Origin: a virus
Taxonomy: Duplodnaviria; Heunggongvirae; Uroviricota; Caudoviricetes
Direction: 5' to 3' (one strand)
DNA: 64,000 nt
Virus record (IMG/VR): IMGVR_UViG_3300013901_000006
Coordinates: 79,774 to 143,773 of that record
Made by a program: the position numbers and the translations under genes. The notes below the pieces were generated by a model. The model did no database searches. It was given only the letters and a program-made list of their open reading frames with translations, and was not told the origin of the DNA. Below are positions 30,892 through 52,557 of this stretch, piece by piece; position 1 is the stretch's first letter; each line of letters starts with the position of its first letter.

Positions 30892-32328
30892 TTAGATTGT
30901 ATACTTTTCCTCGATATAATCAACCAACTCTCCGCCATCTTCAACGTACTTAAGCATCTTAAATACATTGTCGTTGAGCGCGGTCATTAGATGCACATCA
31001 GGATTGTTCGAATTCACAATCTGAGTATGGTAATTTCCAAGGTCAAAGCTATAGAGAGTCGTGCGGCCATAGTTAGCGCAATACTCGTTATAAGAATACA
31101 TTGCCTTATCATATCCCACAGTAGGCCAAAAATATGAACGCTTATCCATTACCTGCATATCAGATACAACAAAAATGCGGTCATAATTCTTATTGCGAAT
31201 CATACCGAAAGCCGGAGCAATATCAGTACCATATCCGCAATGGTCATTATCACACATTTCACGAATAATCTGGAAAGGACCGGAAGCCTTAGCAAACGTC
31301 TTCGTCTTTGCATCGTTACCGAACTTCACAAAGTCACAGTTCCCATTGATATATAGGGCTGCTGCGTAGCAAGCCCCAACTTCCTTGATGGAAAGAGAAG
31401 ACTTGTCGCCATACATACCATCCATGGAGCCAGAAACGTCAAGCATGATAATAGAAGTTCCATCCAACTCAGGCATATTGCCGCAAGCAATACGGAAAGC
31501 GGTATCAAGAGCTGTAATCACTGCCATATTCTGAACACTGAGATTTCGATAGGCCGTATAAATCTGATAAGGGAACACAAGAGACTTGCGGATAGAGACT
31601 TCATTGATAATCTGGTCAACAAGATTCTTCTTGACCCAAACGTCATCAACGTCACTGTGTAGAATGTTGCTGAGATTGCGGATAAGGGCAAGATAACCAA
31701 GTTTATGTCCCTCTACAAGTTCCTTCCAACTAGTGGTACCAGTAGAAATACCAACTTCCCAAGTCTCAGGGGCAGCAAGAGTACCAGCCTTATACTTATC
31801 AATCGTCTCGCTATGAGCATGAGTAATATTGATAAGGTCATACATATTATACTGCTTACCGTTCATCTTATACTTAGCAATCTGATAATCACCAAGAGAA
31901 GAAAGATAATCAGCACAGCCACGAACCAGCGCATGAGAACGCCTGCCGCCAAGCATATCTACAGCTGCAAAAATCTCAGCTGGATCATCCGCGCGATGCA
32001 TGAAATTCTTATAGAACTCACGCTTCTGCTCAAACTTCTCAAAATTCAGGCGAGCTGCGACAAGCTGAGAAGCCGAACGCATACCAAGCTCATTACGCGC
32101 AAACTTAGCGCACTTGGCCGCAAACACAGGACCATAATGCTCAATGATAGCATCAGTCAGCTTGATAAAACGCTCCTGTTGCACATCTGCGGATTCATAG
32201 AAGGTATTACACATCTTAGACGAGAAAAGGAAATTCATCCACTCCTCGACAGGATTCTTTACATAATTAAGCCCACCCTCAAAAGAACGCTCACGAGAGG
32301 GCTTCACATTTTCATTAAACTTTGCCAT
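30892..32328 (-). CDS. rsr: Ro60/Rsr-like protein (TROVE domain + vWA with MIDAS motif)
   Basis: N-terminal SFEGGLNYV / CNTFYES resembles the Ro/Rsr GSDGGTYY region. MIDAS motif LDVSGSMDG at ~aa 300. 478 aa. Confidence 0.6.
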   Translation of the reverse strand: MAKFNENVKPSRERSFEGGLNYVKNPVEEWMNFLFSSKMCNTFYESADVQQERFIKLTDAIIEHYGPVFAAKCAKFARNELGMRSASQLVAARLNFEKFEQKREFYKNFMHRADDPAEIFAAVDMLGGRRSHALVRGCADYLSSLGDYQIAKYKMNGKQYNMYDLINITHAHSETIDKYKAGTLAAPETWEVGISTGTTSWKELVEGHKLGYLALIRNLSNILHSDVDDVWVKKNLVDQIINEVSIRKSLVFPYQIYTAYRNLSVQNMAVITALDTAFRIACGNMPELDGTSIIMLDVSGSMDGMYGDKSSLSIKEVGACYAAALYINGNCDFVKFGNDAKTKTFAKASGPFQIIREMCDNDHCGYGTDIAPAFGMIRNKNYDRIFVVSDMQVMDKRSYFWPTVGYDKAMYSYNEYCANYGRTTLYSFDLGNYHTQIVNSNNPDVHLMTALNDNVFKMLKYVEDGGELVDYIEEKYTI

Positions 32329-32494
32329 AACTACTTCTCTTTCTCTTGGAAGGAAATATACTTATAGGAATTAAATACTGGTATCTATGATTTGAACAAA
32401 AGCACATTTAAGAAGAAAGGATACCTTTATATTTAATTCCTATAGGCATGTTTCCACACCTAAAATAAAATAAAATGAGGAGATGTTAAAAACA

Positions 32495-32600
32495 GTACAC
32501 AAAAGATACCGACCTACCCGACGCAATGTCTGCGAAGGACGGAGTTGAACCGCCTTTCCGCATTTTCAAGGTGAAGTAACTGTTTTTCTATCACTCATTT
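32495..32600 (-). ncRNA. Y-RNA-like tRNA-like small RNA (copy R) with own promoter and terminator, adjacent to rsr
   Basis: 5' box AUGAGUGAUAGAAAAACAGUUACUUC shared with two other copies. T-arm GGCGG-UUCAACU-CCGUC. Terminal helix AAAAACAGU(U)AC / GU-ACUGUUUUU followed by a U-rich tract. Confidence 0.5.
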
Positions 32601-32605
32601 TGTAA

Positions 32606-32634
32606 TTATATTATACAATATAAATTTTTAAAAG
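32606..32634 (-). promoter_or_regulatory. TTGACT-17-TATAAT promoter positioned to start transcription at the 5' box of copy R
   Basis: Minus strand: TTGACT (32634-32629), 17-nt spacer, TATAAT (32611-32606). Predicted +1 at about 32598. Confidence 0.5.
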
Positions 32635-36133: not shown

Positions 36134-36139
36134 GTTTTC

Positions 36140-36690: not shown

Positions 36691-36693
36691 AAT

Positions 36694-37077: not shown

Positions 37078-37083
37078 TAAAAT

Positions 37084-37605: not shown

Positions 37606-37657
37606 TACTTTGACAATTGAATATTTTATTTTAATTATTATTTAATAAAAGGAAATA

Positions 37658-38578: not shown

Positions 38579-38580
38579 CT

Positions 38581-38630
38581 AATAGCCTCAAAGTTTTTCT
38601 TGACTTTGAGGCTATTTTTTTATATACTTA
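38581..38630 (+). terminator. Intrinsic terminator whose loop carries the -35 of the next promoter
   Basis: TAGCCTCAAAGT-tttttcttgac-TTTGAGGCTA then TTTTTTT. TTGACT-17-TATACT is embedded. Confidence 0.6.
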
Positions 38631-38660
38631 TGCTAACAGAATCCAAGAGGAAGAGAGATT

Positions 38661-39044
38661 ATGGATGCAAATGTAGCAATGGTATGTGTCACGGTTATTT
38701 GCGTCGCGGCAATTATAGCTAAATGCTATATGGAACATTTGGCTGAAACTACTCGACGCATTAGGGCGAACGCACCAGAGCACCAACGCAATATCGATAA
38801 CGTTCCATACAATATGAACAATATCTGGAAGAAGAAGTAATGTTTAATATTATTTTATCATTTGCCGCAGGTTTTATAATTGGATATGCGGTGTGTTGTA
38901 TTCTTACTATTGGAAAGGATAACTAATGGCAGATTGCATTTTTGTTGCATATATCCTTGCTGTAATTGGATATGCATATTTTTCATTTAGCCGCAAATTT
39001 GAAAATATTCGATTCAATTTATATCGAATGTATCTTAATTTTTA
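38661..39044 (+). CDS. Cluster of three very small transmembrane peptide ORFs (59, 28 and 39 aa)
   Basis: MDANVAMVCVTVICVAAIIAKCY..., MFNIILSFAAGFIIGYAVCCILTIG..., MADCIFVAYILAVIGYAYFSF.... Each has a plausible RBS. Confidence 0.35.
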
Positions 39045-39538
39045 GTTGACTATTGACTTTATATAAATTATAATATAAACCAATAGAAAGAGGAATTATG
39101 CGTGATATTAATCGTATATATGATATTGTTGTAAAAATTCAAGACATGTGGGAGCACTATTCAGACCAACGTTTAGGTCAACTTATTGAAAATTATCTTG
39201 TAAAAGATGGAGAAGATTTGTTCTATATAGAAGATGAAGAACTTTCTCAACGTTTAACTGATAAACTCTCATGGATTGATTGGTAAAGATGAATATTACA
39301 GTGAAAGATTTTATTGATTGGCTTCGTATGGATACCGCTAATACCGGAAGTATGATTCGCTTTGAAGCATCAAATATTCCGTGCTTAAAGAGTCCAAGCA
39401 TATATTTTAAAGATATTGATGATAATATGACCATTGAATTAGAAAATGCATATGTACATTATTTTCATGTAGAATATAATGAAGATTATAGAATCTTTAC
39501 TTTTGTAATTTATATTTTGTAATTTATGTGGAGTTTTA

Positions 39539-40108
39539 ATGATTACTCAATATTCTCATGGTATCAATACAGAAGCAAATCCAAGCAACAATGTAATTGA
39601 TATTTATAAAAAGTGGAGCGCGGAAGAAGTGCGGGCTAGCCTTCAACCAAATCGTACTCCACTTGTAAATATTTGTCTCAATCTTGACCATGGATTCAAC
39701 GTTGGTTCTATTATTCGAGCATCAAATTGTTTCCTTGCCAAGGAGACTTACGTGGTTGGCCGCAAACGCTTTGACGCTCGTGGAGGTGTTGGATCCAAAA
39801 AATACGAACGCGTATATCATGCAGATACATTAGATGAAGTCCTTGAAGTTCTGCACCCTCTTGGATATACCATTTTTGCCGTAGATAATGTAGAAGAATA
39901 TAATCCGCAGAATATTTTTGATGTTGATATTCCAATGAAGTCTGCTTTCGTATATGGAAGTGAGGGTAATGGTTTGCCAAAAGATGCTATTGACAAATGC
40001 GATGAAATGGTATATATTAGGCAATATGGAAGTATTCGCTCACTAAATGTGGCACAAGCTGCCGCATGTTGTATGATGGAATATTCTAGACGTTATCAAA
40101 TGAGGTAG
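39539..40108 (+). CDS. SpoU/TrmH-family RNA 2'-O-methyltransferase (SPOUT)
   Basis: NICLNLDHGFNVGSIIRASNCF, YGSEGNGLPKDAI, and IRQYGSIRSLNVAQAAACCMMEY match SPOUT motifs I-III. Confidence 0.65.
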   Translation: MITQYSHGINTEANPSNNVIDIYKKWSAEEVRASLQPNRTPLVNICLNLDHGFNVGSIIRASNCFLAKETYVVGRKRFDARGGVGSKKYERVYHADTLDEVLEVLHPLGYTIFAVDNVEEYNPQNIFDVDIPMKSAFVYGSEGNGLPKDAIDKCDEMVYIRQYGSIRSLNVAQAAACCMMEYSRRYQMR

Positions 40109-40377
40109 CTATGAAATGGGAAGATTTATCACCAGAAGCAAGACTATATATTAAATTACAGCCGCATGTTTTTGCTAAGACTACGATTGCATCATTAATT
40201 GCTCTAATGGATAAATCAGTTTCTCTCCAAGAGAAAGCAAATTATATCGACCGTGCGGCAGATATTTTAAAGCTATGCGCAGTTTCAATCAAAAGCCATC
40301 CAGAGTTTGAAATTGTTATTGACAATACTCATAGTACGTAGTATTATATAAAATAAAGATAAGAAAGGATGTTTTAG

Positions 40378-40821
40378 ATGGCTGAGTTGACTAAGAGCGA
40401 CTATAGATACTTTGAAATGGCACATAGGGAAGCTGAAAAATCTACCTATGATACCTTTCATCTTGGATGCGTTCTAGTCTATAAAGGTCACATTATCGGT
40501 CGCGGAAGCAATTCCTCTAAAACTTCACCTATTCAGGCCAAATATAATCAGTTCAGGCAGTTCCGATATGGGCCGCAATTAGTAGCACATAAAAACCATG
40601 CTGAAATCAGCGCTATTAAGAGTGTACCTTATCAGGTAGATAAAGAGACTGATTGGTCAAAGGTTTCATGTTACATTTATCGTATCTCTAAGGGTCGAAA
40701 AAAGAATGTGGGTTTAGCTCGACCTTGTGAGGGATGTTTTCAGGCACTTATCGATAAAGGTATTCGTAACATCTACTATACTACAAATAATGGCTATGCG
40801 TATGAGGAAATTCTTGTATAA
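40378..40821 (+). CDS. CDA-fold deaminase (dCMP/cytidine/tRNA-adenosine deaminase family)
   Basis: HAE...PCEGC zinc-binding signature (HxE, PCxxC). Confidence 0.6.
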   Translation: MAELTKSDYRYFEMAHREAEKSTYDTFHLGCVLVYKGHIIGRGSNSSKTSPIQAKYNQFRQFRYGPQLVAHKNHAEISAIKSVPYQVDKETDWSKVSCYIYRISKGRKKNVGLARPCEGCFQALIDKGIRNIYYTTNNGYAYEEILV

Positions 40822-41236
40822 TGAATATTGTTAGTATTGCTGTAATTATAATTTTTATGTTTTCTGTCTATTGCTATTATAATGGAAAGCGATTTAAATA
40901 ATGAAGTGTATTCTAATTTCAGATAAAGAAATGCAGGATTACCTAAAGCATTTTAATGAATCAAATGGTTCAAATTATAGCTTTGTATGGTGCCCTGAAT
41001 ATTGTAATCTGGTTGATTTTACCAATCATCATCGTCTTGATTATAATAATTCTTTGCAGGCAATTTTATATGAATTTAAATATGATAATATTGAACTTAA
41101 AGCGGTAATTAATCTTGCTATCGAGGAAGGAACTCCTTTAAGCGATGTATGCGGCCTTTATCATGATACTAGCCGCAAAACCTATATTCTTACTTGGAAT
41201 TAAAGCTATTAAGTAGATTCAAACAGTCTACTAAAT

Positions 41237-41311
41237 GGGCCATTAGCTCAGTTGGATTAGAGCCTGAAACTTCTATTTTCAAAGTCGCGCGTTCGAGTCG
41301 CGCATGGCTCA
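41237..41311 (+). tRNA. tRNA-Arg (anticodon TCT)
   Basis: Hand-folded cloverleaf. Acceptor GGGCCAT/ATGGCTC. D arm GCTC-AGTTGGATTA-GAGC. Anticodon stem TGAAA/TTTCA with loop CTTCTAT. T arm GCGCG-TTCGAGT-CGCGC. Confidence 0.75.
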
Positions 41312-41625
41312 CTTAGTAGACTGGCAATCAGTTAGTCTACGTTATTTAAAACAGCATTTTGAAAGGATTTATTGTGAAAATTCGTGATTGGGAAGACTTC
41401 GATGAAGAGGATAACTTTGAAAAATTTTCCCATAAGACAAAACTAATTCGCCAGCGCAAAGATGATACTTACAAAAGTAAGCGTCGTGAGAAGCGTGAGC
41501 GTCAAGAATTTGAAGAAAATGCTGCGAAGGGCGGGGAGTAATTCCTGCCTTTTTTTATTATAAAAAATAGTTGCCATTTGCCGCATAATCATATATAATA
41601 TATTTACCAAAAGAAAGAGGTAAGT

Positions 41626-42561
41626 ATGAATGAAGTAGATATGCTCCGCAATGATTCTCTTGTGCGGGAAAAGGATTTGGGAAACGGAATCTCGTCTTTC
41701 AATTTTTCCAATAAGTGCTTTTGGGATAAGAAGTGGACTACGGAGTCAATCAAGGCTCGCGGATTATTCTGTGATGTTAAAAATAACAATGTTGTTGCAC
41801 GTTCTTATAATAAGTTTTTCAATATTGGAGAGCGTCCTGAGACTGAAATGCGGAATCTTCGTACTACTTTTGCATATCCTGTGCAGGCATATGTGAAGTA
41901 TAATGGTTTTTTGGCAATCGTCTCAGCAGATAAGGATAATCCCGATAAGTTGTTCATCGCATCCAAGAGCACTAATGAAGGCCAGTTTGCGGGATACATT
42001 AAAAACATTATTAACTCTATGTTGAGCGAAGATGCGCAAAAGGATTTTGCAAACACCTTGCATAATCTTAATATCTCTGCTGTGTTTGAGTGTATTGACC
42101 AAGCGCATGACACGCATATTGTAGAATATTTCAGTCCGCATTTAGTTATGCTTGATTGTATTTATAATTCCTTTGAATATAAGCACATGTCATATGAGAA
42201 TATGAGAGAATTTGCATGTAAGTTTGGTTTTTTGTTTAAGGTTCGTTTTTCCATTTTAACAGATTGGGAAGATTTTACAAGTTTTATTGATTGGCATAAG
42301 GATGATAATGGGATTGAAGGATTTGTGTTTGAAGATGCTAATGGGTTCATGGTAAAGTATAAAACTTTATGGTATCGTTACTGGAAGCAGGTGCGTGGCG
42401 TTTTGCAGCAGGTCTGGAACGGACGTGATATTGATTCAATCAAGAATATCAATAACAAGATTAAGCCAGAGCACAAGCAGCCGCTTCTTGATTTCGTAGC
42501 TTCATGCCGCAATCGTGATGCGTGTCCATCAGTAATTGAATTCCGCAACTCTTTATCTTAA
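41626..42561 (+). CDS. RNA ligase of tRNA-ligase (Trl1/KxNG) type
   Basis: Motif I VKYNGF (K-x-N-G). Motif IV IEGFVFE. Motif V VKYKTLWY. 311 aa. Confidence 0.5.
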   Translation: MNEVDMLRNDSLVREKDLGNGISSFNFSNKCFWDKKWTTESIKARGLFCDVKNNNVVARSYNKFFNIGERPETEMRNLRTTFAYPVQAYVKYNGFLAIVSADKDNPDKLFIASKSTNEGQFAGYIKNIINSMLSEDAQKDFANTLHNLNISAVFECIDQAHDTHIVEYFSPHLVMLDCIYNSFEYKHMSYENMREFACKFGFLFKVRFSILTDWEDFTSFIDWHKDDNGIEGFVFEDANGFMVKYKTLWYRYWKQVRGVLQQVWNGRDIDSIKNINNKIKPEHKQPLLDFVASCRNRDACPSVIEFRNSLS

Positions 42562-44796: not shown

Positions 44797-46023
44797 GAAA
44801 GTAGTTGACAATATTTGAAATGTTTGGTAATATATTATTGAAAGTTAAGAAGTGGGCAATTCCAGTAATTGCCGCATTAATCGTTGTGGTTGGGGGCCTA
44901 ACAGTATGGGTTAACACTACCTTCCAAGGTCAACTTTGGTTCGACAAAATGACAAATCAAAGAACTCCACCTCCTGAGAATCACTGTATCAGGGTGTATT
45001 CCGCAGGAGAGCTCGTTGGAGACTATGATGGACATTATTCTGTAGAACAATTTGATGACCACATTGTTCTTATCAATCATGATAAACATGATGATAAAAC
45101 TGAAATCTACGGTGAAACCGCAGTGATTGTAGACGAAGATTAAAAGGAGAAAATTAATGGTTGAATCTTATGGTATGAATTTTAATGCTGCACTAACGCA
45201 GGATAAAGATGGTAAGGTGTCTCTTGGTGTACACGTGACCGATTCGGACGGCCTGGATATTGACAAGAATGAATCTGGCAGCGATATTCCAAAAGTCATT
45301 GAAAATCTTTGCAGTGGTCTGATTAAAGACCTAACAGTTGTATCTAATGGCCGCAAAGCCAAAAAGGAGAAGGAAGATGCGGAGAAGCGTCGTGCGGCCA
45401 AAGCTGAGAAGCAGAAGAAGATTGCAGACCTTAAAGCACAGGCAGAAGCTCTACAAAAAGAGATTGCCGCACTGGAATCTGAAAAAACGTCCTCCACGCC
45501 CAAGACTACAGTGAGTGCTCTAGATTCACTTTCCAAGGACTTTGAATCTCTGCTGGACGATTCAACTATGAAAATTTTCCGCAAGATGCTGTTCTAAAAT
45601 TTATCTTGCAAACCCATATATAAAGTTATATAATATACTTAAAGAAAAGGAAGGAGATACAGGATGTTCGTAGGTGACAAGTTTTATAACATTGATACGG
45701 AACGCGACTTTGACGCTTGCTTGAAAGAGAACGGTTTCGACCCTGCGGAAATTAAAAACTATGCTATCTCCTTCCACGTTTCTAATCGCGCATGTTGCGT
45801 AGAAGGCCTACTTGGTGACGATTGGGCGGAAGTATCTCATGCGATTCAACAGGAGTGTGATGACTTGCGGAATGAGGTGGATAACCTTGAATCTCGTTCT
45901 CGCAAAGGCAATACTCGTGCTGACATTGCTAAACGTCTTAGCACTATTCTTGAGAATATTTATGACCTTGCTTTATCGAATCAAATTTATGACCCCGATG
46001 AACTTTAAGTAATATTTTTTTCT

Positions 46024-46052
46024 TGACAAAAAGGAAAATTAACTATATAATA
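46024..46052 (+). promoter_or_regulatory. Consensus TTGACA-17-TATAAT promoter feeding a ~100-nt transcript ending at the 46120-46165 terminator
   Basis: TTGACA aaaaggaaaattaacta TATAAT. No ORF before the downstream hairpin and T-run. Confidence 0.55.
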
Positions 46053-46119
46053 TATTTGAAATCTTTGGACAAAGATGTATAATTTTGTTGTACAACTTTT
46101 TATATTATATAGTGGTGCT

Positions 46120-46165
46120 AGAGCCTACAGTGTTCCAGAAATATTGTAGGCTCATTTTTCTTTTG
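46120..46165 (+). terminator. Intrinsic terminator (GAGCCTACA...TGTAGGCTC + TTTTTCTTTT)
   Basis: 9-bp perfect stem followed by a T-run. Confidence 0.6.
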
Positions 46166-46170
46166 GCAAA

Positions 46171-46240
46171 GCCAGTTTAGTATAACAGTAATACATCGCT
46201 CTTGTAAAGCGAAGCAGACAGGGCAGCACTGTCAACTGGC
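46171..46240 (+). tRNA. tRNA-Thr (anticodon TGT)-like gene with non-canonical D- and T-loops
   Basis: Perfect acceptor GCCAGTT/AACTGGC + TCCA. D stem GTAT/ATAC. Anticodon stem TCGCT/AGCGA with loop CTTGTAA. T stem GACAG/CTGTC, but the T loop is GGCAGCA and the D loop lacks GG. Confidence 0.45.
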
Positions 46241-46481
46241 TCCAATATTTTAGTATTCTATGAGGATAATATAAAAGGAGATTCGACCACTCCAAGCAAT
46301 GCACTTGTATTATTCTCATAGAGTGCTAACCTTAGACACTCTCCAAGTGATAGTAGAGCGGAATTTGACCCCGTCTGTGCTATCCCAAGTTATAAGCGAT
46401 TCGGGCAGTCGCTATACAAATTTGCCCACTTTAGATTATTAGATAGGCTACATAGGGAGTAGCTACCTCATGGAAAAGTGA

Positions 46482-46537
46482 ATATCCACCACCTGCCTAT
46501 CTATTGTATTTAGTGGATAGGAAAGTGTGGATATATG
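46482..46537 (+). promoter_or_regulatory. Stable hairpin sequestering the RBS and start codon of the HNH endonuclease gene
   Basis: ATATCCAC...CCTATC-loop-GATAGG-AAAGT-GTGGATAT. The 3' arm ends at the ATG (46535). SD-like AGGAAAG lies inside the 3' arm. Confidence 0.5.
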
Positions 46538-47260
46538 CTTAAATGTATTATTTGTGAAAAAGATTTTGTTATTAGACCAAATGGTAAAATGGGCGGGGCA
46601 AATCGTCAAATTTGTTATAATTGCTTGCCTGAAGATATTAGTTCAAAACAAGAAAGACGAAAAGCTACGAATTTTCTTATTAGTCAAAAGCTTCAAAAAG
46701 AAAAAACAAGTCGTGGCTGCGATATTTGTGGTTACAATAGTTGCGGAGCAGCATTAGAGTGGCATCATTATAATAGCGATAAAGATTTTAATCCAAGTGC
46801 TATTCCAGTATGCAATTGGGAAACATTGAAGAAATATCGTAAAGAAACTCAAAAATGTCAATTATTATGTGCAAATTGCCATAGAGAAATACATTATAAA
46901 AAATATTGGGGAAATTTTATTATGCCAATTGATAGTGGCCAAAGTGAAAATTTCAGAAAAGAAGTTTGTGATTATTACAAAGAAAACCTAAACATAAATA
47001 AAACTAGCGTTTATTTCCATAAAAATCGCGAAACAATTAAAAATATTCTGCTGTATTGTGGAGTTAAGATAACTAAAGAAGACAATCATAAATCTGTCAG
47101 TATGATAAATATTAAAACAAATGAAATTATTAAAACATTTTACAGTTTAAATGAAGCTAGTGATTTTTTAAATAAAGGTAAAGGTGGCATTACCCATATA
47201 TCTGATGCTTGTTCCGGGAAAAGAAAGACTGCTTACGGGTACAAATGGCGTTATGAATAA
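46535..47260 (+). CDS. HNH homing endonuclease
   Basis: Zn-ribbon CIICEK...CYNC. HNH core EWHHYNSDKDFN...CANCHREIHYKKY. Confidence 0.7.
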   Translation: MLKCIICEKDFVIRPNGKMGGANRQICYNCLPEDISSKQERRKATNFLISQKLQKEKTSRGCDICGYNSCGAALEWHHYNSDKDFNPSAIPVCNWETLKKYRKETQKCQLLCANCHREIHYKKYWGNFIMPIDSGQSENFRKEVCDYYKENLNINKTSVYFHKNRETIKNILLYCGVKITKEDNHKSVSMINIKTNEIIKTFYSLNEASDFLNKGKGGITHISDACSGKRKTAYGYKWRYE

Positions 47261-47343
47261 TATTTTTCATTTTTACTTTTAAAAATTATTTGACAAATTA
47301 TCAAATAATTTGATATAATATAGTTAACAAAAGGAGAAACACT

Positions 47344-47500
47344 TCTTTTGAACATAGGGTTCCTAAACCAAAAGAATTAGGTGCGGCTTAAGGTTTCAGA
47401 CTACAGATAAAAGAAACTTAGTGATTAAATAAATGATGCGAAAGAACGTCTGAAAAATCACGATTAAAATATGGTTTGCGGTTATCCTAAAACCGCACCT
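47344..47500 (+). ncRNA. Candidate structured small RNA (~160 nt) closed by a 10-bp long-range helix and U-tract
   Basis: UUAGGUGCGG (47374-83) pairs with CCGCACCUAA (47488-97). Internal helices UUUCAGAC/GUCUGAAA and GUGAU/AUCAC. Followed by AAAUUUUUC. Promoter at about 47293-47321. Confidence 0.4.
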
Positions 47501-47857
47501 AAAATTTTTCTTGACTTCTAGTTGAGAATAATGTACAATATATTTAGAAGAAAAGGGGGGAAAAGGATAGTCAACAGTACCATCAACAAACCAGTGACCC
47601 TGCGGCGAATATTAATGAGCCAATACCCATAAGATGTAATATCGAGTACGCTGTTAGGTTGATTAAATTTTTCTTCCAAATAAGTTTAAACGCCAAGAGA
47701 AAGAGGTAAAATGGCACAGTCTATCGAGTCTATGGAGCAGCGTTATCAGATGCTTATTAACCGAAAGGGTAAGAATTCAGAAAATGTAGGCATTATGCGC
47801 AAACTTCGCCGCAAGATTAACAAGGCTAAGTCAGGTATCATTCTTTCTTAATTTTAT

Positions 47858-47980
47858 ATGCGTGATAGGGATTCAGTTACTTCATATCAATAGCAGAGAT
47901 ATAGGCTGTCGGTTCGAATCCGACCATCTACGGATGTAGCTCAACAGGTAGAGCGATGTCATTTTATAGTCTGAATCCAA
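47858..47980 (+). ncRNA. Y-RNA-like tRNA-like RNA, copy A (closing helix + T-arm + acceptor-like hairpin + D-arm)
   Basis: 5' box AUGCGUGAUAGGGAUUCAGUUACUUC. GGAUUCAG (47869-76) pairs with CUGAAUCC (47971-78). Enclosed: GUCGG-UUCGAAU-CCGAC, CUACGGAUGUAG, and GCUC-AACAGGUA-GAGC. Confidence 0.5.
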
Positions 47981-48204
47981 GATTTCCGCATATTTTTTCT
48001 TGACTTTTGGTTATATATATTATATAATATATTTAGTTCAAAGGAGATAACATGAAATACTGCATTTGCCGTGAAAAAACTACGCATTGCCTGTCTATTC
48101 GAGTTGATACTGACTGCTCGCCTGTACGCTTTGATGTACTTTCCATTCATGACACTTTCGAAGAGGCAGATGCGGCACTTCGTTTTTATCTTGATTAATC
48201 TATT

Positions 48205-48290
48205 TTATAGATAGATTAATTTGAACATTCCGCAGCCAGAGCCAATCTGGACCGCCGCATACTTGAAAGGAAGCGGGTTTGAATGTTTTA
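48205..48290 (+). ncRNA. Candidate small structured RNA between a 48-aa ORF and tRNA-Lys
   Basis: Terminal pairing GAACAUUC/GAAUGUUU encloses hairpins CCAGA-gccaat-UCUGG and CCGC-N14-GCGG. Speculative. Confidence 0.25.
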
Positions 48291-48291
48291 T

Positions 48292-48364
48292 GCGCCCTTA
48301 GCTTAGTTGGTAAAGCGGTGGACTCTTAATCCAAAGACCGTCAGTTCGAATCTGACAGGACGCA
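48292..48364 (+). tRNA. tRNA-Lys (anticodon CTT), two non-Watson-Crick pairs
   Basis: Acceptor GCGCCCT/AGGACGC (C4·A69). D GCTT-AGTTGGTA-AAGC. Anticodon stem GTGGA/TCCAA (G27·A43) with loop CTCTTAA. T arm GTCAG-TTCGAAT-CTGAC. Confidence 0.5.
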
Positions 48365-48379
48365 CCTATTTTATTTCGC

Positions 48380-48452
48380 TCGTCTGTAGTTCAGCTGGTA
48401 GAACATTTGGCTGTTAACCAAAATGTCGTAGGTTCGAGTCCTACCGGACGAG
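48380..48452 (+). tRNA. tRNA-Asn (anticodon GTT)
   Basis: Acceptor TCGTCTG/CGGACGA. D GTTC-AGCTGGTA-GAAC. Anticodon stem TTTGG/CCAAA with loop CTGTTAA. T arm GTAGG-TTCGAGT-CCTAC. Confidence 0.7.
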
Positions 48453-48465
48453 CAAAATAAAATAT

Positions 48466-48494
48466 TTGACAAAATCATTTCGGTAGTATATAAT
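48466..48494 (+). promoter_or_regulatory. TTGACA-17-TATAAT promoter for a ~150-nt non-coding transcript
   Basis: TTGACA aaatcatttcggtagta TATAAT. No ORF until 48683. Confidence 0.5.
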
Positions 48495-48499
48495 ATAAA

Positions 48500-48655
48500 T
48501 ATAAAATAACAAGTCTTCAAGAATCTTAACTCATACGGTTTGGCCGTCGATAGAGGAACTACTAAGGACGGGACACCTGAATGCTAGCTAATACAGGGAG
48601 CAGACAGCCAGTATTGTTCTTGATGTAATCGAATGAGCTATCTTGTTGTTTTATA
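48500..48655 (+). ncRNA. Candidate structured small RNA (~150 nt)
   Basis: Ends pair (AUAACAAG / CUUGUUGUUUU) followed by a U-tract. Internal helices CCGUC/GACGG, CUCAU/AUGAG, GCUAGC. Confidence 0.35.
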
Positions 48656-49349
48656 TTTATATTATTGGTCGAAAGGTTTCAAATGAAATTATATCTGAAA
48701 CACTATACTAACAAAATTTTATGGTCAGAGCCAAAAGATGATGATGAAGCATATAAAGATATTCAAAATTGGTTAACAGAACATTATCCAATTAATCATT
48801 ATATGCGGCATTGGGTAGATAATGCTGGTGTTCATTGGATTGATTTTGGTTCGCACACAGATTTCTTTTGCATTGAAGGAGAGTAGGCAATGTCTTACAA
48901 CAAGGAAGAAGATTTGAAGTTGAAATACGCTTATATTCCCGATGATGCGGCAAATGCCCCTGCTTCTAAAAAGAAGAAGCCGTCTCCTAAGAAAGCCAAC
49001 CATAAACATAATTATGATAAAAGTATTATCATCAATTATTATGATAAATATACTGGTAAGTGGACCTATTCATATAGGAATATCTGCACTGTTTGCGGCC
49101 GCATTGGTGATTTTAAAGATAAAGATGGAATCATCGCAAAGACTTTCCCGCACATCGGTACTTGTTGGTTTGGCTTTTCTGTTGCTTTTGGATATAATGC
49201 AGAATTTGAGGAGTTTACCGAATGGTCAAAAACTTGGTATCCTGTAATTGTTTGGAAAGACTATCAGCCTTTATCAGATAAGTTTATTCCTAACGAGTTT
49301 TTTGATGAACTTAAAATCGGAACAGATAAAGTAGATTAATAATGTACCT

Positions 49350-49434
49350 CGGGAGTTGATGGAATTGGCATACATAGCGGCCTCAAAAGCCGTCGGTTAT
49401 TGTAACCATACGAGTTCGAATCTCGTACTCCCGA
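49350..49434 (+). tRNA. tRNA-Leu (anticodon CAA), class II with long variable arm, CCA encoded
   Basis: Acceptor CGGGAGT/ACTCCCG-A-CCA. D loop GAATTGGCATA. Anticodon stem GCGGC/GCCGT with loop CTCAAAA. Variable arm GGTTA-TTG-TAACC. T arm ACGAG-TTCGAAT-CTCGT. Confidence 0.7.
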
Positions 49435-49442
49435 CCAGAACT

Positions 49443-49525
49443 GCTACGGTATCCCATTAAAGACATGGACCGGCCTGTAAAATCGGTACCTTAAGGTTGA
49501 CTAGGAGCGTTACCTAGACGTAGCA
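49443..49525 (+). tRNA. tRNA-Tyr (anticodon GTA)-like class II gene with non-canonical T-loop, CCA encoded
   Basis: Acceptor GCTACGG/ACGTAGC (G7·A66). Anticodon loop CTGTAAA is identical to bacterial tRNA-Tyr. Variable arm ACC-TTAA-GGT. T stem CTAGG/CCTAG but loop AGCGTTA. D loop lacks GG. Confidence 0.4.
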
Positions 49526-49541
49526 CCAATTGTATTTTATA

Positions 49542-49616
49542 ATGCGTGACAGAAAATCAGTTACTTCTATTTTAAAAATAAGATATTGGTTCGATTCCAA
49601 TTACCGCATAAAAACT
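49542..49616 (+). ncRNA. Y-RNA-like tRNA-like RNA, copy B (minimal: closing helix + hairpin + T-arm)
   Basis: 5' box AUGCGUGACAGAAAAUCAGUUACUUC. GAAAAUCAGUU (49552-62) pairs with AACUGAUUUU (49605-14). T-arm AUUGG-UUCGAUU-CCAAU. Confidence 0.45.
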
Positions 49617-49659
49617 GATTTTAGTATTTCCGCGTTTAATTTTTATTCTGGTATGTGAT

Positions 49660-49930
49660 TGAGTTTTAGTTACTTCGAAGATATATATTATGTTTTAAAT
49701 TAATTAAAATTTAAATTAAAAGAACCGGCTTTTACGTCAGACTATAACGGCGTAACAAAAAACTGGTAACTTATACTAAAACTAGTATTTCCATACCTTC
49801 CTCTTTCTCTTGGATAAGTGATTGAACCGCATAGTTACTTCATATTTTTGGTATAATATAATTCAGTCTATGTGATATTATTTCCTTATCTTAAACATTT
49901 TGCGTGATTGGTTCAAGAGATACTTCATAA
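49660..49930 (+). repeat. Three decayed partial copies of the GUGAU...AGUUACUUC 5' box
   Basis: GTGATTGAGTTTTAGTTACTTC (~49657), GTGATTGAACCGCATAGTTACTTCATAT (~49822), TGCGTGATTGGTTCAAGAGATACTTCAT (~49893). None has a following T-arm. Confidence 0.4.
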
Positions 49931-49984
49931 ATATTTTATGACATTTTTTTTTTGCTCTCTCTTGGGCATACTTTCCGCTTTAAT

Positions 49985-50012
49985 AGGGCCTTATGGCCCT
50001 ATTTTTTTTTAT
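49985..50012 (+). terminator. Intrinsic terminator (AGGGCC-ttat-GGCCCT + T9) fused to a TTGACT promoter
   Basis: Hairpin plus T-run directly followed by TTGACT-N17-TATAAT. Confidence 0.6.
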
Positions 50013-50155
50013 TGACTTTATACATACAATATTATATAATATATATAAAGAAAGAGAAAACTCTTATAGTAGCTGTATTGCATCATGTACTAGAGGACTA
50101 TTTGATAATGCATATGGCTATTCTTGGCGATATGTATGACAAGGAGGTGGTGCCA

Positions 50156-50703
50156 ATGTCAATCTGGATTATTTCAGATTCTCATTGAATCAATTTGGTC
50201 ATAAGAATATAATAACGTACTGTAACAAATCTCGTCCTTTCGACACTGTTGAGGATATGAACGAAGCAATTATCAATAGATGGAATGACCGCATTTCTCC
50301 TGATGATATTGTATATCATCTTGGTGATGTTTGTATGGGACAACTTGATACAATCGATAAGTACCTTCCTCGACTGAATGGTCATGTTACTCTCATTAAG
50401 GGGAACCATGACACGAAGGGCCGCATTGCCCGCATCCAAGAGGTTGTCGGTTGGGAAGTCCTCAACATTGAATGTATCCGCTATAATGATATTAACTTTC
50501 TTATGATGCATGAGAAGTCAGAAGACATGCATGGTAATTCTGAGAATGTCATTCTTTACGGTCATGTTCATGACGCTGCGCCGCATGGTTTGCAGCCTGA
50601 TTGGACATACCATGTTGGACTTGATACTAACAACCTAGCTCCTGTCAACCTCCATGATATTTGGATTGATGTCCTAGAGCAGCGAATTAAGACTGGTGAA
50701 TAA
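50156..50703 (+). pseudogene. Calcineurin-like metallophosphoesterase interrupted by an 8-nt insertion just after the DxH motif
   Basis: AAGGAGGTG RBS then MSIWIISDSH-stop. Out of frame it continues NQFGHKNIITYCNKSRPF...GDV...GNHD...GHVHD. Removing TGAATCAA (50186-93) restores ISDSHFGHKNII, the family consensus. Confidence 0.55.
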
Positions 50704-51534
50704 TGGAAGTTAAGCACAAAGTTCAAAGGATTTGCGGCAATTGCCGATATTATTGGCATAAATCATGTTATCGATTTCCGCCGCAAATTGTTTTGGACTA
50801 TGATTATAATGTGAGGACGGTTCACCCTTCGCCGCAGTCAGGAGACAGATGTGGTGAATGGTCTATTCATCCTAAATTGGAGCAAAAATGAAATGCAAGA
50901 AGATTTGTTGGACTTGTAAGTATATGCGTGGCAGATATACCGATTCGTTCTATGGCGGGTCTATTGGAAATTGCGCATATGATTCTGTAATGTTGGGACA
51001 TTTTGATGAATCAAGAGATAATATGCCGCTTAAAAGCGGTGATGATACTTGCGGCAATTGGGCACCAAACGAATATTTTGCATCTATAGATAATTTTTCC
51101 TAAATTTTATCTTGACTCTTGGGTAATTATATTATATAATATAATTAAAGAAGTTGAGAGAGAGGTTTTGGACATGGACTTCAATATCTGCGCTAACTGC
51201 AAGCATTTTCTTACAACTGATTCTGATTATATGTTTGGACATTGTATCAAGGAGTTTGCTGATGCTGGGTTAGACATTCATGAAATCAAGTCTATGATTG
51301 GACCTATTGGTAATATTCTCGGTGATGATTATATGTGTGCGGATGGTGAGCTCAATGATTAACAATAGTTTCGATGGTTGGACGAAAGAGCAACTTGACC
51401 AGTACAATGAACTTTGTATTGACTATCCGCAATGGGCAGTTGACATGCTTATTGACCTCTATGGCCCAAATGAACTTTTTGACGGTATCGTAATGGACCT
51501 TGAAGAGTACTCTTATATGCTTTAATATTGGAAT

Positions 51535-51607
51535 ACCTGTGTAGCACAATTGGTTAGGGCAGTTGACTTATAATCGACCGATGCGGGTTCAAGTCCCGAC
51601 ACAGGTA
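51535..51607 (+). tRNA. tRNA-Ile (anticodon TAT), unusual
   Basis: Perfect acceptor ACCTGTG/CACAGGT. D GCAC-AATTGGTTA-GGGC. Anticodon stem GTTGA/TCGAC with loop CTTATAA. T arm GCGGG-TTCAAGT-CCCGA (G·A at 49-65). Confidence 0.5.
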
Positions 51608-51790
51608 CCCGACATGGGATAGATAACCAGTGGGGAACTGGGTCCGCCTGCTAAGCGGAACGTACTTGTAAATAATAAGTATCCGGGTCGGAACCGGATT
51701 ATCCCGCCAATGTTTATTCCCGCGCCTATACGCGGTGGCTTTCATGGTAGTGCCGAAAACAACCATTGCGGCAGAATAGGCAACACCGCA
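51608..51790 (+). ncRNA. GC-richer structured RNA (~180 nt) between tRNA-Ile and tRNA-Ser
   Basis: Local hairpins CCGC-cugcuaa-GCGG, UCCGG-gucggaa-CCGGA, CGCG-ccuaua-CGCG, UGCGG-N15-CCGCA. Long-range GGGAUA/UAUCCC. No ORF. Confidence 0.4.
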
Positions 51791-52074: not shown

Positions 52075-52557
52075 ATGGCTACTCTTTATATTCTCGCAGC
52101 TATTCCAGCCGCAGGAAAGACAACTTGGGCGCATGAGCATCATTCTGAGCTTGATGCCAAGATTATCTCGCGCGATAACATTCGTTTCAACTATATGGCA
52201 AATGACCCTGATTTTCTTCCTTCCATGGATTATTTCAAGTATGAGAAGGATGTCGAGCGATGCTTCTATGACCAGATTAATTGGGATTTGTGTGTAAATG
52301 ATATGAACGTCATCGCTGATGCCACTCATATCTCTTGGAAGAGTTTAAAGAAAACTGTTGAGCATTGCGGCAAAAACGCGGACAAGGTTATTCTTGTATA
52401 CTTCAATCGTGGTCTTGATATTGCCTTGCCGCAGAACGCGAAGCGTGATGGCGTTGAGCATGTTCCCGAGGAAGTAATCAAGCGTATGTGGAAGAACCGC
52501 TATCAGCCTGCTCGTGCAAAGGCCGCAGGTCTTGTTGATGAATATATGATTGTGTAG
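52075..52557 (+). CDS. pnk: Polynucleotide 5'-kinase (T4 Pnk kinase-domain homolog), copy 2
   Basis: [22 protein letters not shown] aligns to the T4 Pnk [38 protein letters not shown], and [12 protein letters not shown] match NRDDYRQ, ISDTNL, and VPIDVLRSMYKSM. No phosphatase domain. Confidence 0.65.
   Translation: [160 protein letters not shown]

What the first reader, a model, noticed from the sequence alone, without database searches (positions are those of the whole stretch)
47344..51790. Several ORF-less structured RNAs with their own promoters and terminators inside the tRNA island
The candidates are:
- 46058-46160: ~100 nt between a consensus promoter and a terminator
- 47344-47500: a 10-bp closing helix plus nested helices and a U-tract
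- 48205-48290
- 48500-48655: its own promoter at 48466
- 51608-51790: GC-richer, four local hairpins
T4's tRNA cluster likewise encodes two stable RNAs of unknown function (species 1 and 2).
Basis: partly seen in the sequence, partly recalled or inferred. Interest (0 to 1): 0.5.

Follow-up and report, generated by a model that had tools for sequence, protein, structure and literature searches.

The report
Phage Y RNAs and odd tRNAs

Summary
Partly confirmed, and reinterpreted. The window is an uncultured phage of about 145 kb from human gut samples.

Of the five listed candidates:
- 51608-51790 is a divergent class-II tRNA-Ser(GCU)-like cloverleaf (51616-51709) plus a conserved three-helix mini-RNA (51732-51790).
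- 46058-46160 is a conserved promoter-proximal terminator hairpin ahead of a tRNA-Thr-like gene.
- 48205-48290 shares two hairpins with a long ncRNA found in relatives.
- 47344-47500 and 48500-48655 have real promoters but no comparative support.

Each copy has:
- a terminal stem, then a G-U(bulge)-GA/UCC helix;
- a second stem, then a (U/A)UACUUC box;
- a variable module.

Both stems covary strongly. One copy carries the T-arm/hairpin/D-arm module of YrlA. One copy lies directly upstream of the phage's TROVE/Ro60 gene (30892-32328, minus strand). The same signature lies beside TROVE genes in other phages, and 95 of 120 bacterial loci carrying it also hold a TROVE gene.

These are YrlA-family Y RNAs. 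They differ in the Ro-binding motif, score below Rfam's threshold and have mostly moved into the tRNA island. Binding to Ro60 is inferred, not shown.

The parts
47856..47993 (+). Yl1: Y RNA-like gene. P1 is AUAUGCG/CGCAUAU. It has the G-U(bulge)-GA/UCC helix, P2 GGAUUCAG/CUGAAUCC and a UUACUUC box. Its module is YrlA-type and tRNA-like: T-arm GUCGGUUCGAAUCCGAC, hairpin CAUCUACGGAUG, D-arm UAGCUCAACAGGUAGAGC. A U-run follows.
   Evidence: Rfam YrlA scores 31.8 bits against a gathering score of 69, E = 6e-4. Found by the motif scanner. The MFE fold recovers P1 and P2. In a full-length alignment with 7 phage homologues, 16 of 23 pairs show compensatory changes.
49541..49636 (+). Yl2: Y RNA-like gene whose module keeps only a T-arm-like hairpin (AUUGGUUCGAUUCCAAU).
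49650..49797 (+). Yl3: Y RNA-like gene with a 99-nt AU-rich module that is not tRNA-like.
   Evidence: and 88 (z = -3.8).
49812..49891 (+). Yl4: Y RNA-like gene with a short 26-nt module.
   Evidence: (best CM hit, 19.9 bits).
49902..49978 (+). Yl5: Y RNA-like gene with a weak 3-bp P1 and an AUACUUC box. The operon terminator at 49982-50003 follows directly.
   Evidence: terminator.
32472..32601 (-). Yl0: sixth family member. It lies directly upstream of the TROVE gene on the same strand. It has its own promoter (32638-32610, 11/12), a T-arm-like hairpin and a U-rich tail.
30892..32328 (-). TROVE-domain protein (Ro60/Rsr orthologue, 478 aa), the presumed protein partner of the Yl RNAs.
   Evidence: Pfam TROVE scores 48 bits against a cut-off of 23. 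PHROG 850 'RNA-binding protein', E = 7.5e-32. Thermus phage phiLo Ro60 (PDB 9KOP/9L5Y), E = 3e-23 over residues 13-395.
49442..49528 (+). E: tRNA-Tyr(GUA)-like cloverleaf. The anticodon loop is CUGUAAA and the 3' end reads GCACCA. The D-loop and T-loop (AGCGUUA) are non-canonical. It lies 4 nt after tRNA-Leu.
   Evidence: RNAalifold on 8 relatives: 11 of 25 pairs compensatory. Missed by ARAGORN and by Rfam tRNA. Coordinates.
51616..51709 (+). The anticodon loop is CUGCUAA, there is a long variable arm, the T-loop is GUCGGAA, and CCA is encoded.
   Evidence: 13 of 29 pairs compensatory. ARAGORN calls a tRNA-Ser(GCU) at the homologous position in L023. Coordinates.
51732..51790 (+). It is flanked by the tRNA-Ser-like gene and tRNA-Ser(UGA).
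   Evidence: 81-87% identical across relatives. 97% of cells paired against at most 62% in slid controls; 3 pairs change on both sides.
46058..46160 (+). Tandem promoters are followed by the palindrome GTTGTACAAC (46087-46096) and a 14-bp terminator hairpin (46121-46153) with a U-run. It ends about 10 nt ahead of the tRNA-Thr-like gene.
   Evidence: z = -4.9. About 80% conserved in 9 loci. One compensatory pair in the hairpin, and the palindrome is kept as GTTGCGCAAC in relatives.
46171..46241 (+). tRNA-Thr(UGU)-like gene with a non-canonical T-loop (GGCAGCA).
   Evidence: Rfam tRNA 44.9 bits. Not called by ARAGORN here. ARAGORN does call tRNA-Thr(UGU) just upstream of the J2 element in the relatives L007, L016 and L019.
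47326..47505 (+). The long-range helix 47377-47386/47493-47502 and the local hairpin 47477-47497 are alternatives. Identity unresolved.
   Evidence: z = -4.4. Only the first 113 nt are shared, and only with L007/L009. Relatives keep the local hairpin. Differences from the 99% twin are uninformative.
48223..48288 (+). It lies just upstream of tRNA-Lys and has no promoter of its own.
   Evidence: z = -1.4. Both hairpins recur, with compensatory changes, inside a roughly 470-nt promoter-driven ncRNA of relatives.
48497..48658 (+). It continues into the ORF starting at 48684. It is either a lineage-specific leader or an sRNA.
   Evidence: z = -2.8. No homologue outside the 99%-identical twin contig. 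No Rfam match at E <= 10.
46320..46432 (+). J2: nearly invariant ORF-less element downstream of the tRNA-Thr-like gene. In relatives tRNA-Gln follows it; here a homing-endonuclease ORF follows.
   Evidence: 83-95% identical in 12 loci. Three predicted hairpins with very little variation.

Best explanation
The tRNA island is a cluster of non-coding RNA genes of three kinds.

(1) Canonical tRNAs.

(2) Divergent tRNA-like genes with correct anticodon loops but non-canonical T and/or D loops:
- Thr at 46171-46241
- Tyr at 49442-49528
- Ser at 51616-51709

(3) YrlA-family Y RNAs, six copies in the window:
- Yl1 follows a 46-aa ORF.
- Yl2 to Yl5 form a head-to-tail array behind tRNA-Leu and the tRNA-Tyr-like gene, closed by one terminator.
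- Yl0 sits upstream of the phage's Ro60/TROVE gene.

Each Y RNA pairs its 5' and 3' ends into P1. P1 continues through an invariant one-U bulge into G-C and A-U pairs. A short internal loop leads to P2, then the invariant (U/A)UACUUC box, then an exchangeable module. The module can be a full tRNA mimic, a T-arm only, or unrelated hairpins.

Inferred mechanism. The polycistronic transcripts are cut out by tRNA-processing and AU-spacer-cutting RNases. The conserved bulged helix docks each Y RNA on the phage Ro60 ring. The variable module gates Ro60 or tethers it to other factors, as bacterial Y RNA tethers Rsr to PNPase. This would act within the phage's RNA repair and quality-control set: RlaP, two RNA ligases, two kinases, a phosphoesterase and an SPFH protein.

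What is shown and what is inferred. Shown: the structures, their conservation and their linkage to TROVE genes. Inferred: binding, processing and role.

- I is a tRNA-like gene plus a conserved mini-RNA that flanking tRNA processing would release.
- A is a promoter-proximal terminator or attenuator.
- C is a conserved two-hairpin module.
- B and D are lineage-specific promoter-driven leaders or sRNAs of unknown role.
For: Family anatomy and covariation:
- Five paralogues: 92% of cells paired and 11 of 15 pairs changed on both sides.
- 28 distinct cores from about 14 paralogue classes in related phages: 94% paired against at most 48% in slid controls; 13 of 15 pairs changed on both sides; covariation score 0.73 against 0.19 for shuffles.
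- All 74 scanner hits lie on the gene-sense strand.
- MFE folds recover P1, the bulged helix and P2 in all six window copies.

Link to TROVE:
- The only family member outside the island lies in the 555-nt gap directly upstream of the TROVE gene, same strand, with its own promoter.
- The same arrangement occurs where TROVE is 62% and 56% identical (L026, L027).
- A DNA-only pattern scan of IMG/VR gave 50 loci. Nine hold true elements. Six of those nine have a TROVE gene (24-52% identity) downstream on the same strand, directly adjacent in most. None of the 41 spurious loci does (Fisher p = 5e-6).
By my own rough estimate a handful would be expected by chance. 95 of the 120 carry a TROVE homologue within 8 kb.

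Link to YrlA:
- The T-arm, acceptor-like hairpin and D-arm order in Yl1.
- 16 of 23 pairs are compensatory in 8 full-length phage homologues.
- The conserved YUAY that begins the V region of YrlA (PMC4201824) matches UUAC, AUAC or CUAC in the box.

The TROVE protein itself.

tRNA-like genes.

Mini-RNA.

RNA-repair neighbours.
Against: - No expression, end-mapping or binding data exist.
- The published Ro-binding motif GNCGAAN0-1G is absent; the phage copies have G-UGAY-N-R instead.
- Every Rfam YrlA score is far below the gathering score (26-33.5 against 69).
- Four of the six copies lack a tRNA-like domain.
- Five copies lie about 15 kb from the TROVE gene.
- The motif scanner required pairing (P2 at least 6 bp, P1 at least 5 of 7). 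The percentage paired is therefore inflated by construction; only the diversity of pair types is independent evidence.
- The core alignments had the variable loop nucleotides trimmed.
- B and D have no homologues outside a 99% twin, and their few substitutions do not favour the predicted folds.
Confidence: 0.75

Rival explanations
1. The listed segments (A, B, C, D and the 3' part of I) are only leaders, spacers or attenuators of neighbouring tRNA and protein genes. On this view they are structured because AU-rich phage transcripts need processing sites or terminators, and they have no function as separate RNAs.
For: - C and I have no promoter or terminator of their own, and D runs straight into an ORF.
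- C and I fold no better than shuffled sequence.
- B and D are absent from all but the nearest relatives.
- A is a hairpin plus U-run placed between a promoter and a tRNA-like gene, which is the layout of an attenuator.
Against: - The 3' part of I is better conserved than its surroundings, including its loop sequences, and keeps three helices.
- C's two hairpins recur with compensatory changes in a different genomic context in relatives.
- This view does not account for the Yl family at all.
Confidence: 0.35
2. The repeated Yl elements are tRNA-mimic decoys or processing cassettes that act without Ro60. They might, for example, soak up host anticodon nucleases or tRNA-modifying enzymes, or mark RNase cleavage sites between tRNAs.
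For: - They sit among tRNAs and tRNA-like genes.
- Several modules contain T-arms or a whole tRNA-like domain.
- The phage carries tRNA-repair enzymes, which suggests conflict over tRNAs.
- In L060 an element lies beside a tRNA with no TROVE gene in 2.2 kb.
Against: - The invariant part is the stem, bulge and box, not the tRNA-like module. Four of the six window copies lack a full tRNA-like module, and three lack any T-arm.
- The signature is strongly linked to TROVE genes in phages and bacteria.
Confidence: 0.12
3. The Yl repeats are DNA-level elements, such as miniature mobile elements, recombination sites or protein-binding iterons, rather than RNA genes.
For: They occur as tandem, similar-sized repeats with conserved ends and variable interiors. 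The make-up of the arrays differs between close relatives.
Against: - Both stems are kept by compensatory changes, with G-U pairs on one strand only.
- All copies lie on the sense strand.
- Yl0 has a promoter placed exactly at its P1 and a U-rich tail.
- There is homology to the YrlA tRNA-like domain.
- I noticed no terminal inverted repeats or target-site duplications when reading the sequences, but did not search for them.
Confidence: 0.04

Closest known systems
YrlA-class bacterial and phage Y RNAs (Chen et al. 2014, PMC4201824; Rfam RF02553)
   Same: - Encoded next to a Ro60/TROVE gene.
- The 5' and 3' ends pair into a long interrupted stem.
- A conserved YUAY begins the region ahead of the T-arm.
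- The tRNA-like domain runs T-arm, acceptor-like hairpin, D-arm (Yl1 and homologues).
- Several Y RNAs per genome.
   Different: - The 5' motif is G-UGAY-N-R, forming a one-U-bulged helix with UCC, instead of GNCGAAN0-1G.
- Rfam scores are 26-33.5 bits against a gathering score of 69.
- Four of the six copies have modules that are not tRNA-like.
- Five of the six copies lie about 15 kb from the Ro60 gene, inside the tRNA island, four of them as a head-to-tail array.
Thermus phage phiLo Ro60 with Yrl1 and Yrl2 (PMC12135203; PDB 9KOP, 9L5Y)
   Same: A phage-encoded Ro60 homologue with phage-encoded Y RNA-like genes directly upstream. It is the closest solved structure to the window's TROVE protein. 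That paper proposes the complex hijacks host PNPase.
   Different: The proteins are about 26% identical. The phiLo Yrls were picked by their CGAA motif, which is absent here. phiLo has two RNAs, not six, and no association with a tRNA island is described.
Y RNAs without a tRNA-like domain, such as Salmonella YrlB (mentioned in PMC4201824)
   Same: Short Y RNAs that share the Ro-binding stem with YrlA but lack the tRNA-like domain, as Yl3, Yl4 and Yl5 do.
   Different: No sequence relationship was tested. YrlB carries the GNCGAA motif, and it lies in the rsr operon rather than in a tRNA cluster.
Phage T4 stable RNAs species 1 and 2 (rnaC, rnaD) in the tRNA cluster (from my own knowledge, not checked here)
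   Same: Small structured RNAs of unknown function, co-transcribed with phage tRNAs and released by tRNA-processing enzymes. This is the best analogy for the mini-RNA at 51732-51790 and for C.
Canonical bacterial and phage tRNAs (Rfam RF00005)
   Same: E, the 5' part of I and the Thr-like gene have cloverleaves with 7-nt anticodon loops (U33, purine 37). Tyr and Ser have class-II variable arms. Some have an encoded CCA.
   Different: The T-loops (AGCGUUA, GUCGGAA, GGCAGCA) and E's D-loop break the conserved T-loop/D-loop consensus. ARAGORN misses all three. Rfam tRNA finds only the Thr-like gene.

Membership tests
YrlA / Y RNA (Chen et al. 2014; Rfam RF02553) | Encoded adjacent to a Ro60/Rsr (TROVE) gene | tested here: met
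   - Yl0 lies directly upstream of TROVE on the same strand.
- The same holds in L026 and L027, and a TROVE gene lies downstream on the same strand in L031, L035, L036, L052, L064 and L069.
- 6 of 9 true-element loci have an adjacent TROVE gene, against 0 of 41 spurious loci.
- Yl1 to Yl5 themselves lie about 15 kb away in the same genome.
YrlA / Y RNA (Chen et al. 2014; Rfam RF02553) | 5' and 3' ends pair into a long stem interrupted by a conserved internal loop or bulge | tested here: met
   P1 and P2 covary: 94% of cells paired, 13 of 15 pairs changed on both sides, and slid controls reach at most 48%. MFE folds show the invariant one-U-bulged helix.
YrlA / Y RNA (Chen et al. 2014; Rfam RF02553) | GNCGAAN0-1G motif near the 5' end (the proposed Rsr contact) | tested here: not met
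   All phage copies read G-UGAY-N-R, for example GUGAUAG, GUGACAG, GUGAUUA. Bacterial loci found with the UUACUUC signature carry GUGNCGNAGA-type motifs, which are close to the published one.
YrlA / Y RNA (Chen et al. 2014; Rfam RF02553) | Conserved YUAY at the start of the V region, after the stem | tested here: met
   The box (U/A/C)UACUUC follows P2 in every copy. YUAY is described in PMC4201824.
YrlA / Y RNA (Chen et al. 2014; Rfam RF02553) | tRNA-like domain: T-arm, acceptor-like stem-loop, D-arm, in that order | tested here: inconclusive
   Met for Yl1 and for 7 phage homologues. Only a T-arm-like hairpin is present in Yl0 and Yl2. Absent in Yl3, Yl4 and Yl5.
YrlA / Y RNA (Chen et al. 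2014; Rfam RF02553) | Score at or above the Rfam gathering threshold (69 bits) | tested here: not met
   31.8 bits for Yl1 and 26-33.5 bits in L012, L026 and L027. The model also reported no YrlA match in any of 18 bacterial or MAG loci that carry the signature, 13 of which also hold a TROVE gene. The threshold is therefore narrow.
YrlA / Y RNA (Chen et al. 2014; Rfam RF02553) | Physically bound by Ro60/Rsr | not testable with these tools
   Needs RIP, CLIP or EMSA with the protein encoded at 30892-32328.
tRNA (for E at 49442-49528 and the 5' part of I at 51616-51709) | Cloverleaf with a 7-bp acceptor stem, D, anticodon and T arms, and a 7-nt anticodon loop with U33 and purine 37 | tested here: met
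   - E: 25 pairs, 11 compensatory; anticodon loop CUGUAAA.
- 5' part of I: 29 pairs, 13 compensatory; anticodon loop CUGCUAA.
- ARAGORN calls a tRNA-Ser(GCU) at the same site in L023.
tRNA (for E at 49442-49528 and the 5' part of I at 51616-51709) | Canonical T-loop (UUCRANY) and D-loop GG; recognised by tRNA finders | tested here: not met
   The T-loops are AGCGUUA and GUCGGAA, and E's D-loop lacks GG. Neither is called by ARAGORN or by Rfam tRNA at E <= 10.
tRNA (for E at 49442-49528 and the 5' part of I at 51616-51709) | Aminoacylated and used in translation | not testable with these tools
   Needs charging assays or tRNA-seq.
Promoter-proximal intrinsic terminator or short sRNA (candidate A) | Sigma-70 promoter, GC-containing hairpin and U-run within about 100 nt, conserved in relatives | tested here: met
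   Promoters 46023-46051 and 46056-46083, hairpin 46121-46153 and a U-run. The element is conserved, with one compensatory pair. Whether termination is complete or regulated is not testable here.
T4 species 1 and 2 stable RNAs | Sequence or structure homology to rnaC or rnaD | not tested
   No T4 comparison was run. The link is by analogy only.

The most novel reading that the evidence does not exclude
This gut-phage lineage has turned the Y RNA into a modular adaptor set. One conserved Ro60-docking stem carries interchangeable cargo modules: a full tRNA mimic, a T-arm only, or unrelated hairpins. These are encoded as arrays of up to six, co-expressed with tRNAs and with non-canonical tRNA-like genes. 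Each module would direct the phage Ro60 ring, and the linked RNA-repair enzymes, to a different RNA or host protein. Alternatively, the modules would act as decoys for different host tRNA-targeting defences. The fast turnover of modules between close relatives would then reflect an arms race.
Probability: 0.25. Interest if true: 0.8.

Novelty: new variant of a known kind. Interest (0 to 1): 0.6.

Why it matters
Y RNAs and Ro60 are well studied in animals and in a few bacteria, but what they do in phages is almost unknown. Only one phage Ro60/Y RNA pair has been characterised biochemically.

This work defines a sequence and structure signature: a bulged G-U-GA/UCC helix plus a UACUUC box.
- It finds Ro60-linked RNAs that the Rfam model misses, in phages and in many bacterial phyla.
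- It shows that an uncultured family of human-gut phages carries up to six such RNAs with exchangeable modules.
- It shows these RNAs travel with tRNAs, aberrant tRNA-like genes and a full RNA-repair gene set.

This gives concrete constructs for testing how a viral Ro60 chooses its RNAs and what the variable modules recruit. It also shows that tRNA finders under-count phage tRNA-like genes.

Tried and rejected
- GenBank phages hold no DNA relative. The near search found nothing, and the distant search found only tRNA matches.
- Rfam gave nothing at gathering score beyond tRNAs and a group I intron. At E <= 10 the only informative hit was the sub-threshold YrlA match.
- Nothing relevant was found around the TROVE gene.
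- A covariance model built from the five trimmed cores (R1) could not span the large variable modules. It recovered the known copies only weakly, among noise. I replaced it with a regex-plus-pairing scanner.
- Protein-guided scans of IMG/VR with three island or TROVE proteins returned mostly the 99% twin contig. Useful relatives came instead from exact-protein look-ups of kinase and TROVE homologues.
- The distant phage L020-L022 (DUF2828 protein, kinase 39% identical) has no UACUUC-type element.
- I considered whether the 5'/3' loops form a K-turn and rejected it, because the 3' GA is not conserved.
- I considered ROOL or GOLLD for the 570-nt ORF-less stretch 49438-50010 and rejected it: Rfam gave no hit, and the stretch resolves into a tRNA-like gene plus four Y RNAs.
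- B, C and D were compared with the 99% twin to look for informative substitutions. There were too few, and they were not compensatory.
- BLAST of B, C and D against every fetched locus and against the window found homologues only for C, and for the first 113 nt of B.

Full report
CONTEXT. The window has no DNA relative among GenBank phages. A 99%-identical IMG/VR contig exists (L002/L006). Exact-protein look-ups of homologues of the kinase at 52075-52557 and of the TROVE protein retrieved syntenic loci from a large family of uncultured phages of about 130-147 kb, at least some from human gut samples. These loci supplied the comparative evidence.

The window also encodes an RNA-repair gene set:
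- a TROVE/Ro60 orthologue at 30892-32328, minus strand
- an RlaP nucleotidyltransferase next to it
- an Rnl2-type and an Rnl1-type RNA ligase
- two AAA_33 kinases
- an SPFH protein
- a SpoU methylase
- a metallophosphoesterase

CHECK OF THE FIVE CANDIDATES. Consensus promoters and terminators are real and more frequent than in shuffled sequence (49 against 27, and 12 against 3.6).

- A (46058-46160) has two tandem promoters, a palindrome at the start site (GTTGTACAAC here, GTTGCGCAAC in relatives) and a 14-bp terminator hairpin with a U-run. It ends about 10 nt before a tRNA-Thr(UGU)-like gene. It is about 80% conserved in nine loci, with one compensatory pair. It is a promoter-proximal terminator. 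Whether it yields a short sRNA or acts as an attenuator cannot be told here.
- B (47344-47500) has a 12/12 promoter with a TG extension and folds well (z = -4.4). Its long closing helix competes with a local hairpin (47477-47497), and relatives conserve the local hairpin. Only its first 113 nt recur, and only in L007/L009.
- C (48205-48290) folds no better than chance (z = -1.4). However, its two hairpins, one with the loop AUACUUGAAARGAA, recur with compensatory changes inside a roughly 470-nt promoter-driven ORF-less RNA in L010, L012, L019 and L023.
- D (48500-48655) follows a 12/12 promoter, has no terminator and leads into an ORF. It has no homologue outside the twin contig and no Rfam match.
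- I (51608-51790) has z = -0.9 but the best comparative support of the five. Its 5' part (51616-51709) is a class-II cloverleaf with anticodon loop CUGCUAA (Ser, GCU), a long variable arm, an encoded CCA and a non-canonical T-loop. 13 of its 29 pairs are compensatory, and ARAGORN calls a tRNA-Ser(GCU) at the same site in L023. Its 3' part (51732-51790) is a conserved three-helix mini-RNA: 97% of cells paired against at most 62% in slid controls, with three pairs changed on both sides.

A sub-threshold Rfam hit to YrlA at 47884-47972 (31.8 bits, E = 6e-4) showed a T-arm, then a hairpin, then a D-arm, which is the permuted order typical of bacterial Y RNAs.

Around it, and four more times between 49541 and 49978, the same frame recurs:
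- terminal stem P1
- 5' UGAY
- stem P2 of 7-8 bp ending in AG
- (U/A)UACUUC
- a variable module of 26-99 nt
- P2'
- ...UUUC
- P1'

The five paralogues pair in 92% of cells, and 11 of 15 pairs change on both sides. A scanner run over all fetched loci found 74 copies, comprising 44 distinct sequences in about 14 paralogue classes, all on the gene-sense strand. On 28 distinct cores, 94% of cells pair (slid controls at most 48%), 13 of 15 pairs change on both sides, and the covariation score is 0.73 against 0.19 for shuffles.

Two caveats apply. The scanner demanded pairing, and the variable loop nucleotides were trimmed. The diversity of pair types, not the percentage paired, is therefore the real evidence.

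MFE folding of each window copy independently recovers P1 and P2. It also shows that the invariant letters form a one-U-bulged helix, G-U(bulge)-G-A pairing with U-C-C.

LINK TO RO60. The scanner found one further copy in the other 58 kb of the window. It lies at 32601-32472 on the minus strand, inside the 555-nt gap directly upstream of the TROVE gene. It has an 11/12 promoter ending about 9 nt upstream of P1, and a U-rich tail.

In relatives whose TROVE protein is 62% and 56% identical, the gap upstream of TROVE holds the same element, including tRNA-like versions (L026, L027).

A DNA-only pattern scan of IMG/VR returned 50 loci, roughly the number I estimated for chance matches.
- Nine hold true elements by the pairing test or by eye.
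- Six of those nine (L031, L035, L036, L052, L064, L069) have a TROVE gene downstream on the same strand, directly adjacent in most. Its protein is 24-52% identical to the window's.
- None of the 41 spurious loci has one (Fisher p = 5e-6).
- Arrays of four or more copies occur in L031, L035 and L069.

95 of the 120 loci carry a TROVE homologue within 8 kb.

RELATION TO YrlA. Chen et al. (PMC4201824) define YrlA by four features:
- adjacency to Ro60
- a 5' GNCGAAN0-1G motif
- a conserved YUAY that begins the V region
- T and D arms separated by an acceptor-like hairpin

The elements here meet adjacency, the stem, YUAY (UUAC, AUAC or CUAC) and, for Yl1 and seven phage homologues, the tRNA-like domain (16 of 23 pairs compensatory). 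They do not meet the GNCGAA motif, because they read G-UGAY-N-R. They also fall below the Rfam gathering score.

The Rfam model reported no YrlA match in any of 18 bacterial or MAG loci that carry the signature, 13 of which also hold a TROVE gene. Those bacterial loci do carry GUGNCGNAGA-type motifs. Failing the Rfam threshold therefore reflects a narrow model rather than non-membership.

I file the phage elements as a variant within the YrlA-type Y RNA family. Four of the six window copies lack the tRNA-like domain, as the YrlB-type RNAs do.

OTHER tRNA-LIKE GENES. E (49442-49528) lies 4 nt after tRNA-Leu. It is a cloverleaf with anticodon loop CUGUAAA (Tyr, GUA), a variable arm, a 3' GCACCA and non-canonical D and T loops. 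11 of its 25 pairs are compensatory. With the Thr-like gene (46171-46241, T-loop GGCAGCA) and the Ser-like gene, the island holds three tRNA-like genes that ARAGORN misses. Whether they are charged is unknown.

MECHANISM (inferred).
- The unit 48466-50010 reads: promoter, D, two ORFs, tRNA-Leu, tRNA-Tyr-like, Yl2 to Yl5, terminator.
- tRNA-processing enzymes and cleavage in the 10-15-nt AU-rich spacers would release the Y RNAs.
- The bulged helix would dock each Y RNA on the phage Ro60.
- The module would gate Ro60 or tether it to partners. This follows the Rsr-Y RNA-PNPase precedent and the phiLo Ro60-Yrl-PNPase complex (PMC12135203).
- The neighbouring RlaP, ligase, kinase and phosphatase genes fit the view that Ro/TROVE is part of RNA-repair systems in phages (PMC7824862).

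Rival readings are scored separately: mere leaders or spacers; Ro-independent tRNA decoys; DNA repeats.

NOVELTY. Phage Y RNAs are known from mycobacteriophages, CcrColossus, Bacillus phage G and phiLo. Four things appear new in the literature I could search:
- the variant docking motif
- the signature that finds Ro60-linked RNAs invisible to Rfam
- arrays of up to six RNAs with rapidly exchanged modules
- their move into the tRNA island of an uncultured gut-phage family

The region as a whole is moderately interesting.

Noticed in passing
window 750-1078 (-): Group I catalytic intron, 56.3 bits against a gathering score of 50. It lies near an NrdD-like anaerobic ribonucleotide reductase gene (2365-3567, minus strand) and a 174-aa ORF at 119-643.
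   Followed up: no
window 50156-50703 (+): The metallophosphoesterase gene looks split. ATG 50156 encodes MSIWIISDSH and then a stop. The rest of the protein continues in another frame from TTG 50185. Relatives have an intact gene of 171-178 aa. This is a frameshift, a sequencing error or recoding. The 99% twin differs from the window exactly in 50060-50248.
   Followed up: partly
window 46242-47260 (+): A homing endonuclease ORF with a NUMOD1 domain and an HNH-like cysteine/histidine pattern seen by eye (46535-47260). A long, nearly perfect hairpin of about 25 bp at about 46250-46330 precedes it. Together they occupy the place where most relatives have tRNA-Gln directly after the conserved J2 element, so this looks like a lineage-specific insertion.
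   Followed up: partly
L010 4880-5350; L012 3160-3610; L023 3130-3600: Relatives carry a roughly 470-nt promoter-driven ORF-less RNA at the position of the window's candidate B. It begins with a minimal YrlA-like unit: stem AAUCG/CGAUU, UGAUGG, T-arm, hairpin, D-arm. Conserved structured sequence follows. No Rfam family matches it.
   Followed up: partly
L036 585-1300: In a distant phage contig a Y RNA-like element is followed by a predicted tmRNA (671-1023, tag GNNSFVPVYDAAVARIAA) and then the TROVE gene.
   Followed up: no
L031 2109-2243: ARAGORN calls a tRNA-Lys(UUU) at 2137-2210, entirely inside the module of a Y RNA-like element. The module here may be a complete tRNA.
   Followed up: no
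L079-L198 (bacterial genome loci): The Rfam YrlA model (gathering score 69) reported no YrlA match in any of 18 tested bacterial or MAG loci that carry the UUACUUC / T-arm / D-arm signature, 13 of which also hold a TROVE gene. The current model therefore misses most of this family in Acidobacteriota, Bacteroidota, Actinomycetota, Verrucomicrobiota and Clostridia.
   Followed up: partly
window 29931-42561: A dense RNA-repair and RNA-modification gene set surrounds the TROVE gene: RlaP nucleotidyltransferase, an Rnl2-type ligase (35195-36133, minus strand), an AAA_33 kinase (37084-37605), an SPFH/Band 7 protein, a SpoU methylase (39539-40108), tRNA-Arg(UCU) at 41237-41312 and an Rnl1-type ligase (41626-42561).
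   Followed up: partly
window 47540-47710 (+): A 165-nt 5' leader (promoter 47511-47539) lies ahead of a conserved 46-aa ORF. It is about 78% conserved in L016 and L023 but folds no better than shuffled sequence (z = -0.1).
   Followed up: no
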